Origin: an uncultured Actinomycetes bacterium
Lineage (GTDB): Bacteria; Actinomycetota; Thermoleophilia; Gaiellales; Gaiellaceae
Assembly: GCA_963839755.1 (NCBI GenBank)
Contig: CAWIVU010000008.1
Coordinates: forward strand, 228,263 to 292,262
Length of the DNA: 64,000 nucleotides
Reading direction: 5' to 3'
In this document: positions 18,161-23,745 of the stretch, in pieces
Position numbering within the stretch: the stretch's first letter is position 1
Layout of the letters: each line of letters starts with the position of its first letter
Program-made: the position numbers and the translations under genes
The notes under the pieces: model-generated
The model's input: only the letters and a program-made list of their open reading frames with translations
Database searches by the model: none
What the model was told of the DNA's origin: nothing

Positions 18161-18728
18161 GCCGGCGATCGCGCGTTCTATTGCGTGACCCGAAATACGG
18201 TCACGGTTTCGGACGAAAGCGTGACCGGGATCGAACTGTCTTCCGCGCCATAAGGCGGCCCACGATGCACAACTGAGCCTCGGTTCACCTAGCCGGGACT
18301 CGATGCGAGGTGCCTGCACACAGGCAGGCGAGCGCCCGTCGTGCGCCACTCGGCCGACGCCGCGCGAAGCGTCGCTAATGGGAACGCGAAGCCTTCCGGC
18401 CGTTGACAGGACTGACACTCCACAGCCTTGCTGCGGCGAGTGGGGCGTCCCCAAAGCCTATCCCCACGAAGCCCTACTCGCACCTCGCGCGCTAGTCCGC
18501 GTCACATGACCCTTGTCCAAGCCGTTCTCGGGGCGCGGCGGGCTACTCGACTGGGACCCCCTCCTTCTTACGGAGGTGCTCCGAGGTACCGGGCAGCAGG
18601 TCGATTTGCAGGGGCTTTGCAGCCGCGCAGCGAGCTTAATAGCCCTCCCGACGGTAATGCGGAGGTGCTCTGTGGTGCTGTGTTAGACAACAAAAATCCC
18701 CGATTTCCGGGGATTTTCCTCTCACTAG

Positions 18729-18801
18729 AGCCCTCTGACGGACTCGAACCGTCGACCCCCTCCTTACCATGGAGGTGCTCTACCAACTGAGCTAAGAGGG
18801 C
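18729..18801 (-). tRNA. tRNA-Thr(GGT)
   Basis: GCCCTCTTAGCTCAGTTGGTAGAGCACCTCCATGGTAAGGAGGGGGTCGACGGTTCGAGTCCGTCAGAGGGCT forms a full cloverleaf with anticodon GGT. CCA is not encoded. Confidence 0.97.
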
Positions 18802-20386: not shown

Positions 20387-20468
20387 TGCAGGGGAGAGGA
20401 TTCGAACCTCTGAAGGCTGAGCCAGCGGGTTTACAGCCCGCCCCCTTTGGCCACTCGGGAACCCCTGC
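20387..20468 (-). tRNA. tRNA-Tyr(GTA)
   Basis: GCAGGGGTTCCCGAGTGGCCAAAGGGGGCGGGCTGTAAACCCGCTGGCTCAGCCTTCAGAGGTTCGAATCCTCTCCCCTGCA, with anticodon GTA and a long variable arm. Confidence 0.97.
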
Positions 20469-21664: not shown

Positions 21665-22060
21665 CTACTCCTCGGCCAACGCCTCGGCCAGCAAAGCCGT
21701 CGCGTACGCCTGCCAGGCGAGGTCCGGGTCCCCCAGCAGCAACGAGAGCGATTCGCGCGCGCCGCGCAGGCCGGCGACTTCGTCCACGAGCCCAAGCAGG
21801 GCGTTGTGGAGCGCTGCTCGCCGCTCCGGTGCGTCGAGGTCGTCGGCGAGCGCGGTCGCGGCCCTTCCGAAGGGGTCGAGCTCCCGCCTCGGGTCGCCGC
21901 CCGCGGCGAGGAGCAGCTCGGCGCGGCGCACGGCGGCGTTCAGCTCCTCCTCGTCGACGGGCACCTCGCGACCCGCGAAGAAAGAGAGCATCGTCCATTG
22001 CTCGGCCGGCGCCGCGCGCTCGAGCGTCCTGACCCAGTCGCGGATCGTCTGCCGCGCCAT
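21665..22060 (-). CDS. Hypothetical protein
   Basis: 131-aa ORF with good codon usage, 9 nt downstream of the TlpA-like gene. Contains AAVRRAELLLAAGGDPRRELD. Confidence 0.75.
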   Translation of the reverse strand: MARQTIRDWVRTLERAAPAEQWTMLSFFAGREVPVDEEELNAAVRRAELLLAAGGDPRRELDPFGRAATALADDLDAPERRAALHNALLGLVDEVAGLRGARESLSLLLGDPDLAWQAYATALLAEALAEE

Positions 22061-22069
22061 GCGCGCGTT

Positions 22070-22555
22070 CTAGCGCAGTTTCGCGATCAACGCGTTCCAG
22101 CGAGCGGGCGTCCCGGCGGACTGGAACCCGGCGACGAACCGGCCCTTGGCGTCGATCAGGATGAACGCGGGCTGGTAGGTCGCGCCGAAGCGCTTCGCGA
22201 GGGCGCGCTGCGGGTCGCGAATCGACGGCCACCTCCAGCCGTACCGCCGCACGAACGCACGGGCGCCGTCGGGCGTGTCAGCCGCGTTCAGGCCGAAGAA
22301 GTGGAAACGCTTCCCCTGCTTCGAGACCCAACGTGCGTAGGCGACCGCCTCGCTGTTGCAGACGCTTCACCACGACGACCAGACGTTGATCACCACCGGC
22401 TTGCCGCGCAGGTCTGCGAGTGCGAGCCGCTTGCCGTCGAGGGTGACACCCGCGATCGGCGGCGCCTTCCTCGGGGGCGTCGCCGCGCTCGCCCAGGGCG
22501 AGACGACGGCACCGAGCACGAGTGCCGAGACGAGCAGCGCGAGACCCCTTCGCAC
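22070..22555 (-). CDS. TlpA/ResA-like thioredoxin-fold protein, candidate selenoprotein (UxxC)
   Basis: Signal anchor, then LADLRGKPVVINVWSSW-TGA-SVCNSEA continuing in frame through YQPAFILIDAKGR. The TGA at 22367-22369 sits at the first Cys of the WCxxC motif. Confidence 0.85.
22329..22358 (-). promoter_or_regulatory. Candidate bacterial SECIS hairpin
   Basis: CAAC-A-GCG-AGGC-GGTC-GCCT-A-CGC-AC-GTTG starts 8 nt after the TGA. The apical loop GGUC is 20 nt from the UGA. Confidence 0.65.
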
Positions 22556-22674: not shown

Positions 22675-23745
22675 ATGTCTCGTTCGGCTCTGCATCGGCT
22701 CTGCGTCGCCGCCGCCCTCGTCCTGGGCGTGCCAGCGACGGGGCTGGCCGCCGGTCCGAGCGAGGACCTGCCGCTGGCTGCGCCGTCGGCCAAGAGCTGG
22801 GCCGCGCCGCAGATCGCGTCGGTCGTGCTCGCGGGCGTGATGGGGCCGGACGTCGCATCCTTCCGGCCCGACGACGCCCTCACCCGCGCCGAGCTCCACG
22901 AGGCGCTCCTCGCCCTCGGCAAGTCGCACGCGACGCCCACCGACCCCAACCGCACCGTGACGATGCGCGAGCTCGACGCCCAGCTCGTCGCCGCAGCGGG
23001 TCTCATCTCCTCGGCCCGCGTCATCCGGCTCGGGACGCGGGACGCGGGCCTCGAGCCGACCGACATGATCGGCACCGAGACGATCGCGCGGCTGCTCGGC
23101 CTGCGTGTGAACCATCCGGTCGGAAGCGAATCGCTCGAGCGAGCGCCGAAAGAGCCCGCCTCGCGGGCGGAGGCCGCGTACTCGCTCGCGAAGCTCAGGC
23201 TCCTCGATCCTGCCCGTGTGACGGCGATCCGCGACCTGGTCTCGACGTTCGCCGTGCCAGAGCTCCAGACCTGGCAGCGGCTCGTGCTCACGCGGGCGCT
23301 CCGCTTCGTGGGCTTCCCGTACGTCTTCGCTGGGATGTCGGAGAAGACGCAGTCTCTGTGGACCGCGACCGGCAACACGATCACCGCGCCGGGCGGCTTC
23401 GACTGCTCGGGTCTGGTGTGGCGTGTCTTCAAGCAGCCCTTCGACGGCGCGACCGCCGTCGGCGACGTCCTCAAGGGCCGTACGACCTACGCCATGAGCG
23501 GTGAGGTCGGCAAGGCGCTTCGCTTCGCGCCGACGGCAGCGCAGCCCGGCGACATCCTGTTCTTCGGCTCGCGGGGCCCTCGCTCGAAGCCGTCCGAGGT
23601 CGGCCACTCCGGCATCTACGTCGGTAACGGCTGGTTCGTCCACTCGTCGAGCGCCGGCGTGACGCTTCAGCCACTCCAGGGCTGGTATGCAACGACGCTC
23701 GCGTGGGCTCGTCGCCCGCTTGCCGAGGCGGGTCTGGCGTCCTAG
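22675..23745 (+). CDS. NlpC/P60 (C40) cell-wall peptidase with signal peptide and SLH-like N-terminal region
   Basis: FRPDDALTRAE (SLH-like), GFPYVFAG, GFDCSGLVW, PGDILFF and HSGIYVGNGWFVHSS. Confidence 0.88.
   Translation: MSRSALHRLCVAAALVLGVPATGLAAGPSEDLPLAAPSAKSWAAPQIASVVLAGVMGPDVASFRPDDALTRAELHEALLALGKSHATPTDPNRTVTMRELDAQLVAAAGLISSARVIRLGTRDAGLEPTDMIGTETIARLLGLRVNHPVGSESLERAPKEPASRAEAAYSLAKLRLLDPARVTAIRDLVSTFAVPELQTWQRLVLTRALRFVGFPYVFAGMSEKTQSLWTATGNTITAPGGFDCSGLVWRVFKQPFDGATAVGDVLKGRTTYAMSGEVGKALRFAPTAAQPGDILFFGSRGPRSKPSEVGHSGIYVGNGWFVHSSSAGVTLQPLQGWYATTLAWARRPLAEAGLAS

What the first reader, a model, noticed from the sequence alone, without database searches (positions are those of the whole stretch)
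22070..22555. Hidden selenoprotein: exported TlpA-like oxidoreductase with UxxC and a SECIS-like hairpin
Seen: the ORF track splits this gene, but the minus-strand frame reads GKPVVINVWSSW-TGA-SVCNSEA and continues 98 sense codons past the TGA to the TAG at 22070, including the cis-Pro loop (YQPAFILID.KG). The TGA sits exactly at the nucleophilic Cys of the TlpA/ResA WCxxC motif. Directly downstream is the hairpin CAAC-A-GCG-AGGC-[GGUC]-GCCU-A-CGC-AC-GUUG, whose loop resembles the GGUC of the E. coli fdhF SECIS and lies 20 nt from the UGA. Known: Sec is encoded by UGA plus a 3' SECIS, and thioredoxin-fold UxxC selenoproteins exist. Inference: this organism decodes Sec and exports a 161-aa selenoenzyme that standard gene callers would miss. 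I cannot judge whether this subfamily is already described.
Basis: partly seen in the sequence, partly recalled or inferred. Interest (0 to 1): 0.8.

Follow-up and report, generated by a model that had tools for sequence, protein, structure and literature searches.

The report
Exported selenium thioredoxin of Gaiella-like actinobacteria
A gene that looks broken by a stop codon keeps that TGA at its active site across a whole family of Gaiella-like bacteria and very likely encodes an exported, selenium-containing thioredoxin-like enzyme that likely reduces oxidised proteins outside the cell membrane; selenoproteins of this kind are already catalogued, but this family-specific branch was not found in print.

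Summary
Confirmed. The minus-strand frame 22555-22070 gives a 161-residue TlpA/ResA-fold protein with TGA at the first Cys of WCxxC. The genome has selA, selB, selD and tRNA-Sec above curated cut-offs, plus four other selenoprotein candidates. TGA sits at the same codon in 16 of 16 same-genus orthologues, 58 of 58 close metagenome hits and 41 further family-level matches. A 7-pair stem with a G[G/U] loop 20 nt downstream meets the published bacterial SECIS model and is the gene's synonymous-change minimum. A 4-pair core plus loop occurs in 94 of 96 Sec sequences and 0 of 42 Cys sequences. A tree gives one Sec clade (100/100), found in one family only, with two nested Cys rows. Members are either acidic lipoproteins (24 of 24) or basic, non-lipidated proteins (8 of 8). 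The likely role is a CcdA-fed, accessory envelope disulfide reductase; this is inferred and the substrate is unknown. UxxC selenoproteins of the TlpA and redoxin families are already catalogued, so this is a new lineage-specific member, not a new kind.

The parts
22070..22555 (-). Coding sequence, 161 aa with Sec at 63; TlpA/ResA-type thioredoxin fold
   Evidence: Pfam AhpC-TSA 4.8e-18 and Redoxin 2.7e-17; model pLDDT 86.4, top Foldseek hit ResA 1su9 E 1.2e-13
22484..22555 (-). Predicted signal peptide, residues 1-24 (basic start, hydrophobic core, A-x-A); start codon GTG inferred from orthologue starts 57-63 codons before the TGA
   Evidence: hand heuristic only; an RR pair in the first six residues in only 10 of 18 rows, so Tat export is unlikely
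22367..22369 (-). In-frame TGA, predicted selenocysteine 63 (nucleophile of U-S-V-C)
22358..22360 (-). Resolving Cys66
   Evidence: invariant in 18 of 18 rows
22349..22351 (-). Glu69, six residues after the nucleophile, as in CcmG/ResA/StoA; also part of the hairpin stem
   Evidence: 58 of 58 Sec rows; PMC3961690 passage
22335..22353 (-). Conserved SECIS-like core: 3 pairs, one 3' bulge, 4 pairs, 4-nt loop (22346-22343) with G in position 2; -9.1 kcal/mol
22329..22358 (-).
22169..22171 (-). Pro129 of the Y-Q-P loop, aligned with the ResA cis-Pro loop (cis geometry inferred)
21665..22060 (-). 131-aa ORF of no known family, 9 nt after the stop; positional neighbour that persists where the selenoprotein gene is absent
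22675..23745 (+). Divergent SLH-like plus NlpC/P60 peptidase with one Cys in the mature part; frequent but not obligatory neighbour

Best explanation
The gene keeps an in-frame TGA at the first Cys of a TlpA/ResA-type active site and very likely encodes an exported selenocysteine enzyme (U-S-V-C) that likely works as an accessory disulfide reductase in the cell envelope, likely fed with electrons by the membrane protein CcdA. Shown: the TGA, its conservation, the downstream stem-loop, the complete sel gene set and the fold. Inferred at about 0.97: SelB binds the stem-loop and tRNA-Sec reads the UGA. Inferred at about 0.85: the chain is exported and its signal peptide is cleaved; the very basic mature protein (pI about 11) would stay on the anionic wall or membrane, where most relatives use a lipid anchor. 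Inferred at about 0.55: Sec63 attacks disulfides or oxidised Cys of envelope proteins, Cys66 resolves the mixed bond, and CcdA re-reduces the selenosulfide. It would back up, not replace, the Cys-type TlpA encoded near this genome's only ccdA. Single-Cys wall enzymes such as the neighbouring NlpC/P60 peptidase are candidate substrates only.
For: Decoding: selA 526.7 bits, selB 341.6, selD 341.5, tRNA-Sec 68.2, all over cut-off. Four other TGA-at-Cys genes in the genome: formate dehydrogenase alpha, PDO, UGSC-like, SelW/Rdx. TGA in 16 of 16 same-genus orthologues from 36 genomes, 6 of 6 close genome hits, 58 of 58 metagenome hits at 57% identity or more against 0 of 22 distant ones, and 42 matches in 38 of 301 genomes of the family sample, window included. 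SECIS: all four criteria of the model in PMC13188914 Fig. 2 are met. Codons 68-74 have the lowest synonymous divergence of 101 seven-codon windows (0.237, median 0.509). Residue 71 is only Val or Gly, which gives loop G[U/G], in 96 of 96 distinct Sec sequences; it is Ala in three close Cys relatives (L221, P0005, P0022). Three compensatory cells among 52 genomic rows, 0-1 of 500 shuffles. Reductase: best sequence and fold matches are ResA; Glu at +6 in 58 of 58 and no acid at -6, as described for the reductant providers CcmG, ResA and StoA; ccdA lies beside 5 of 41 Sec loci and 4 of 8 related Cys loci from the family search. Export.
Against: No experiment shows Sec incorporation, export or activity. 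ccdA is not near this gene (about 168 kb away on the same contig), and 36 of 41 family Sec loci show no ccdA within short flanks of 0.7-1.5 kb. The same fold includes mycobacterial DsbF and MPT53, recalled as oxidases, and the genome has a VKOR beside a DsbA-like gene (DsbA label by eye). The S-T dipeptide is not the Pro-containing type of ResA. The compensatory changes come from two sequences only, and slid controls give as many cells. The 58 metagenome hits were found with a pattern that fixes E-A-[VG]-A-Y, so their conservation is partly circular. selA is also in 17 of 20 same-genus genomes without the gene, and 2 of 16 carriers (54% and 80% complete) gave no selA or tRNA-Sec hit. The genome's one MsrA shows no signal peptide by eye.
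Confidence: 0.55

Rival explanations
1. Real exported selenoprotein, but an oxidase or isomerase of envelope proteins, working with the VKOR/DsbA side rather than CcdA.
For: DsbF and MPT53 rank close behind ResA in sequence and fold; VKOR and a DsbA-like neighbour are present; active-site dipeptide and the residue before the cis-Pro (Q or H) differ from ResA.
Against: ccdA, not VKOR, appears among neighbours of clade members (VKOR was not a query, and no VKOR family appeared among 60 neighbour ORFs scanned); ResA-type Glu pattern.
Confidence: 0.17
2. A second ResA/CcmG that reduces apocytochrome c for haem attachment.
For: ResA is the top match; the genome has three Cytochrom_C_asm hits; some members lie beside ccdA.
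Against: Score far below the ResA, DsbE and TlpA cut-offs (52.6 of 170, 39.1 of 123, 45.1 of 230 bits); no haem-assembly gene among 60 neighbour ORFs; not found in 20 of 36 same-genus genomes, which keep other TlpA-type genes.
Confidence: 0.12
3. An exported selenium peroxidase or small-molecule reductase (peroxide, polysulfide, low-mass disulfide) rather than a protein disulfide reductase.
For: Pfam AhpC-TSA and Redoxin match; Prx-like UxxC selenoproteins are catalogued; stand-alone gene with variable neighbours.
Against: No TxxU/TxxC peroxiredoxin motif; peroxiredoxins rank far below ResA (Bcp 3.3e-5 against 2.4e-19).
Confidence: 0.13
4. The TGA is a true stop (pseudogene or sequencing error) or is read as Trp.
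For: Two database proteins carry W here (P0002, P0003); the gene is often lost outright; one orthologue in a 54% complete genome has a frameshift downstream.
Against: Same codon conserved across dozens of genomes with purifying selection downstream. TGA ends 589 of 926 long coding-like frames in this genome, so it is the main stop codon. The W is probably a gene-caller code choice (inference; DNA not seen).
Confidence: 0.03

Closest known systems
Thiol-disulfide isomerase-like selenoprotein (cd02966, UxxC; Sargasso Sea) and Redoxin family selenoprotein (PF08534, UxxC), PMC13188914 Table 1
   Same: TlpA-like/redoxin fold with Sec at the first Cys of CxxC; predicted, not experimentally verified.
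   Different: This clade was found in one actinobacterial family only and nests among that family's Cys TlpAs; all inspected members have a signal peptide or lipobox. The representatives (MGB1650493.1, HEU0032618.1) could not be fetched, so overlap with those entries is not excluded.
ResA-like WAxxUGC protein (NF041054) / UGC-containing TlpA family
   Same: TlpA/ResA fold selenoprotein; matches at E 1.1e-9.
   Different: Motif is U-x-x-C, not U-G-C; 38 bits against a cut-off of 300; 161 aa against a 354-position model.
Bacillus ResA, StoA, CcmG/DsbE (Cys-type extracytoplasmic reductases)
   Same: Fold (TM 0.73-0.74, rmsd about 2.2 A), W before the motif, Glu at +6, Pro loop; exported; ccdA linkage in some members.
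   Different: Sec instead of Cys; 22-27% identity; below all NCBIfam cut-offs; cleaved basic form or lipoprotein; not in a haem-assembly operon.
Pneumococcal Etrx1/Etrx2 surface thioredoxin lipoproteins (PMC3914529)
   Same: TlpA-type lipoproteins on CcdA-fed pathways for extracellular oxidative defence; structural match E 9.5e-12; most clade members are lipoproteins.
   Different: Etrx are Cys enzymes serving a surface MsrAB; no exported Msr was seen here.
Exported bacterial selenoproteins SaoB, SaoX/SaoC variants, MccSep
   Same: Signal peptide plus Sec, so export of selenoproteins is already known.
   Different: Unrelated folds, described from anaerobes.

Membership tests
Bacterial selenoprotein | In-frame TGA aligned with a catalytic Cys of homologues | tested here: met
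Bacterial selenoprotein | selA, selB, selC, selD in the genome | tested here: met
Bacterial selenoprotein | bSECIS: 3-9 nt loop, 4-16 bp stem, G in first two loop positions, 16-37 nt spacing, MFE at or below -7.5 | tested here: met
   4-nt loop, 4+3 pairs, GG, 20 nt, -9.1 kcal/mol; bSECISearch itself not run
Bacterial selenoprotein | Selenium incorporated in vivo | not testable with these tools
   needs 75Se labelling or mass spectrometry
TlpA-like family (TlpA/ResA/DsbE) | Thioredoxin fold with N-terminal strands and extra helix-strand insertion, (C/U)xxC, Pro loop | tested here: met
   the CDD model cd02966 itself was not available
ResA / DsbE / TlpA / StoA curated NCBIfam families | Score over curated cut-off | tested here: not met
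   52.6/170, 39.1/123, 45.1/230, 31.9/210 bits
WAxxUGC ResA-like selenoprotein (NF041054) | U-G-C motif and score over 300 bits | tested here: not met
   U-S-V-C, 38 bits
Catalogued cd02966 / PF08534 UxxC selenoprotein entries | Same clade as the listed representatives | not testable with these tools
Exported protein | Signal peptide or lipobox | tested here: met
   hand heuristic: basic start and hydrophobic core in 18 of 18 rows; lipobox pattern in 24 of 32 family loci
CcdA-dependent reductase | Genetic or physical link to CcdA | tested here: inconclusive
   adjacent in 5 of 41 Sec loci, not in this genome
Peroxiredoxin | T/S-x-x-(C/U) peroxidatic motif | tested here: not met
   sequence shows U-x-x-C

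The most novel reading that the evidence does not exclude
An undescribed selenoprotein family born by a single Cys-to-Sec switch inside one family of soil Gaiella-like actinobacteria, working outside the membrane as a CcdA-fed reductase, with rare Sec-to-Cys reversions that also erase the SECIS, and with two interchangeable ways of staying at the surface: a lipid anchor on an acidic protein or no anchor on a strongly basic one. It would be a natural set of Sec/Cys twins for testing what selenium buys in an oxidising extracytoplasmic compartment.
Probability: 0.35. Interest if true: 0.58.

Novelty: new member of a known kind. Interest (0 to 1): 0.38.

Why it matters
It corrects annotation: databases hold this family largely as 88-100 aa fragments or with Trp at the active site. 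It shows that a group of soil and sediment actinobacteria uses selenium beyond formate dehydrogenase, with at least five candidates in this genome. A 2026 review states that aerobes rarely retain selenoproteins and that Sec-to-Cys reversions are documented mainly for FdhA and SelD (PMC13188914 section 10); this clade offers candidate counter-examples, although a 2016 survey already found Sec use common in aerobes (PMC5029168). The oxygen preference of these genomes was not tested; Gaiella as an aerobe is recalled.

Tried and rejected
Rfam scan: no SECIS family match, only a tRNA. Folding energy against shuffles: not significant at 50, 70 or 100 nt. Covariation within the genus: none, since the core never varies. 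Lower stem as part of the element: rejected. Tat export: RR not conserved. Obligatory partnership with NlpC/P60: rejected. It neighbours 61 of 80 close loci but only 8 of 29 family-level loci, one orthologue sits elsewhere, and in 15 of 17 loci from same-genus genomes lacking the gene there, NlpC/P60 and the 131-aa ORF lie together with no TlpA hit. Promoter scan: nothing. A hairpin-plus-motif genome scan alone was too noisy (270 candidates); a coding-bias filter gave 59, of which I picked five besides this gene by eye; four matched selenoprotein families and one (C13:101006) matched nothing. Sequencing runs were contigs only, so raw-read support and expression are untested; one RNA-library contig covers 22080-22355, which is not proof of transcription. 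Earlier scan notes: none by place or sequence. Literature searches for selenoprotein+TlpA, selenocysteine+Gaiella, Gaiellaceae/Gaiellales and Actinobacteria selenoproteome listed no paper on this clade; the library lacks most subscription papers. A direct pairwise comparison with the genome's own Cys TlpA was not obtained beyond the 32% identity. No complex prediction was run.

Full report
Observation. The minus strand from 22555 to 22070 gives 161 residues with one stop, TGA at codon 63, then 98 sense codons to TAG. Read with TGA as Sec it matches Pfam AhpC-TSA (4.8e-18) and Redoxin (2.7e-17) over residues 29-145. It matches ResA, TlpA, DsbE, StoA and the WAxxUGC selenoprotein model, all far below their cut-offs. 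A model from an 18-row alignment has mean pLDDT 86.4 and its best structural match is ResA (E 1.2e-13, TM 0.73). A profile search of solved structures also puts ResA first and aligns codon 63 with its first Cys.

Machinery. The genome (87.9% complete, 69.8% GC) has selA and selB side by side on contig C7, tRNA-Sec with anticodon TCA about 2.8 kb after the end of the selB frame, and a Cys-type selD on C5, all over curated cut-offs. TGA is the commonest stop (589 of 926 long coding-like frames), so a Trp code is unlikely. A coding-bias scan gave 59 read-through candidates. Five besides this gene were picked by eye, and four match selenoprotein families with TGA at the Cys position: formate dehydrogenase alpha, PDO, UGSC-like and SelW/Rdx. 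Only the SelW/Rdx protein passed an NCBIfam cut-off; the other three passed Pfam cut-offs.

Conservation. Among 60 relatives, 16 of 36 same-genus genomes hold an orthologue and each has one TGA, at codon 63; none of 24 genomes of other families of the order does. One orthologue has a downstream frameshift and was left out of the rate estimates. A genome-collection scan gave 6 of 6 close hits with TGA, one titled Gaiella sp. and the others Actinomycetes or Actinomycetota, and 13 distant hits with Cys. I take the group to be Gaiella-like on that basis. In metagenomes 58 of 80 kept loci were at 57% identity or more and all had TGA; the other 22 had Cys. That scan also used a pattern ending in Cys, so close Cys forms could have appeared, but its other pattern fixed the residues over the hairpin. 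In an even draw of 300 genomes of the family, all 34 matches at E below 1e-40 had one TGA (window included), and 8 weaker ones did too; all were checked to lie at the motif. In a class-wide draw of 300, TGA matches came only from this family; 25 genomes of other families matched without stops. pN/pS is 0.27 before and 0.41 after the TGA (uncorrected, 16 sequences). One independent DNA contig spans the codon without a listed change.

SECIS. The hairpin is not unusually stable (z 0.41) and has no Rfam match. Its upper 7 pairs are invariant in 17 of 17 same-genus sequences, while the lower four are not. It meets the four criteria of the published bacterial model: loop 4 nt, stem 4+3 pairs, G in loop position 2, spacing 20 nt, -9.1 kcal/mol. 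Codons 68-74 are the window of lowest synonymous divergence (0.237 against a median of 0.509 over 101 windows). Across 167 of 179 loci in which the motif could be placed (12 Cys-type loci with other spacing were skipped), 94 of 96 distinct Sec sequences but 0 of 42 Cys sequences have three core pairs plus a G[G/U] loop. Residue 71 swaps between Val (67) and Gly (29) and is never Ala, which would break the loop rule; the three close Cys relatives have Ala there. On 52 genomic rows 94.8% of cells pair and three cells show double changes, beating 499-500 of 500 shuffles, but these come from two sequences and slid controls reach similar counts, so covariation is weak support.

Evolution. A tree of 86 rows and 137 columns (U written as C) puts all 58 Sec rows in one branch with support 100/100, together with two Cys rows; three changes are needed, which fits one gain and two reversions. 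Direction depends on the root; the surrounding rows are all Cys. L221 has TGT, has lost the hairpin, sits on a long branch, and its genome still has selA and tRNA-Sec. The codon of P0005 was not seen. No catalogued Sec redoxin was in the tree, so independence from them is untested. A profile search of 1.84 billion representatives gave only 10 hits under 1e-30, the best a Cys protein (P0022), consistent with the Sec forms being split by gene callers.

Export. All 18 aligned proteins begin with basic residues and a hydrophobic stretch; the window's has A-x-A at 22-24. This is a hand heuristic. Among 32 family-level loci, 24 show a lipobox pattern and all 24 have acidic cores (pI 4.1-6.1); the 8 without have basic cores (9.7-11.6), as do the 16 same-genus proteins (10.4-11.5). 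Six of those 8 fall in the starred branch that holds the window's genus and two fall elsewhere, so the number of independent switches is small. I infer that basic forms are held on the anionic envelope.

Function. The motif pattern (Glu at +6 in 58 of 58, Asn not acid at -6) fits what PMC3961690 describes for the reductant providers CcmG, ResA and StoA. ccdA lies beside 5 of 41 family Sec loci and 4 of 8 related Cys loci; one Sec member lies beside selB. In this genome the single ccdA lies near a Cys TlpA (32% identity) and an L,D-transpeptidase-like gene (label by eye), about 168 kb from this gene. The selenoprotein is therefore likely an accessory paralogue, and it is lost cleanly in many relatives. 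I favour a CcdA-fed envelope repair reductase (0.55) over an oxidase or isomerase (0.17), a peroxidase-like role (0.13) or a cytochrome c role (0.12). No substrate is shown.

What is known. PMC13188914 (seen: abstract, Table 1 passages, sections 5 and 10 whole) lists UxxC selenoproteins under cd02966 and PF08534 and a UGC-type TlpA. PMC1088965 (passages) reports four thiol-disulfide isomerase-like UXXC sequences. Exported selenoproteins are known: bioRxiv 10.1101/2022.07.06.499078 and 10.1101/2025.11.18.688581 (passages; their supplements were not seen). PMC3914529 (abstract and section headings) describes CcdA-Etrx pathways. PMC13326102, BSepDB (abstract, section 11, term search, part 1 and a search of the cut Table S1), examined Gaiella genomes, so members may already be filed there under a generic family; I could not see its entries. 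PMC12013277 and PMC5029168 were seen as term searches and passages. Searches named under Tried and rejected found no paper on this clade.

Verdict. A real and very likely selenoprotein gene, correctly spotted. It is a new, family-restricted member of a catalogued kind, with some features of interest (export, candidate reversions, anchor and charge switch). Interest 0.38.

Noticed in passing
G000:C16:19746 (L152:1459-3117 +): 553-aa selenoprotein candidate with G-T-U-P-G-C in a UGSC-family domain (Pfam 7.7e-17; NCBIfam 45 of 125 bits) fused to about 400 residues with no family match; a G-G-U-C-loop hairpin lies about 18 nt after the TGA. The motif differs from UGSC.
   Followed up: partly
G000:C15:148136 (L151:900-2837 +): Sec-type formate dehydrogenase alpha whose recognisable frame seems to begin at model position 51; the N-terminal Fe-S part may be a separate gene or frameshifted.
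   Followed up: partly
G000:C10:9553 and C16:360665 (-): PDO-type (U-P-H-C) and SelW/Rdx-type (C-P-V-U) selenoprotein candidates.
   Followed up: partly
L225, L230-L235 (genomes G069, G147, G149, G197, G229): Divergent branch of the same Sec clade with H instead of W before Sec, long Pro/Glu-rich linkers, and a shifted hairpin with a 3-nt loop; up to three copies in one genome.
   Followed up: partly
L215:1997-3451 (G267): A Sec-clade member lies next to selB.
   Followed up: no
window 21665-22060 (-): Conserved 131-aa protein with no Pfam or NCBIfam match, next to the NlpC/P60 gene across the genus whether or not the selenoprotein gene is present.
   Followed up: partly
window 20387-20468 (-): tRNA with anticodon GUA (Tyr), directly upstream of and divergent from a geranylgeranyl-reductase-family gene; a second tRNA-like stretch near 18700-18790 was not checked.
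   Followed up: no
G000:C8:79400-83000 (L180, L186): Cluster of an L,D-transpeptidase-like gene (by eye), the Cys-type TlpA and the only ccdA; both TlpA paralogues of this genome sit beside a cell-wall enzyme with a catalytic Cys.
   Followed up: partly
G054:C1:4225566, G011:C27:94951, G025:C60:4749, G041:C4:32324: Weak thioredoxin-fold matches with one TGA inside; may be other selenoproteins of the order.
   Followed up: no
family f4: All 6 sampled genomes of one family of the order gave no selA or selD hit, while the other sampled families nearly all did.
   Followed up: no
P0005: Cys member of the clade fused behind an N-terminal calcium-binding-type repeat region (PF00353).
   Followed up: no
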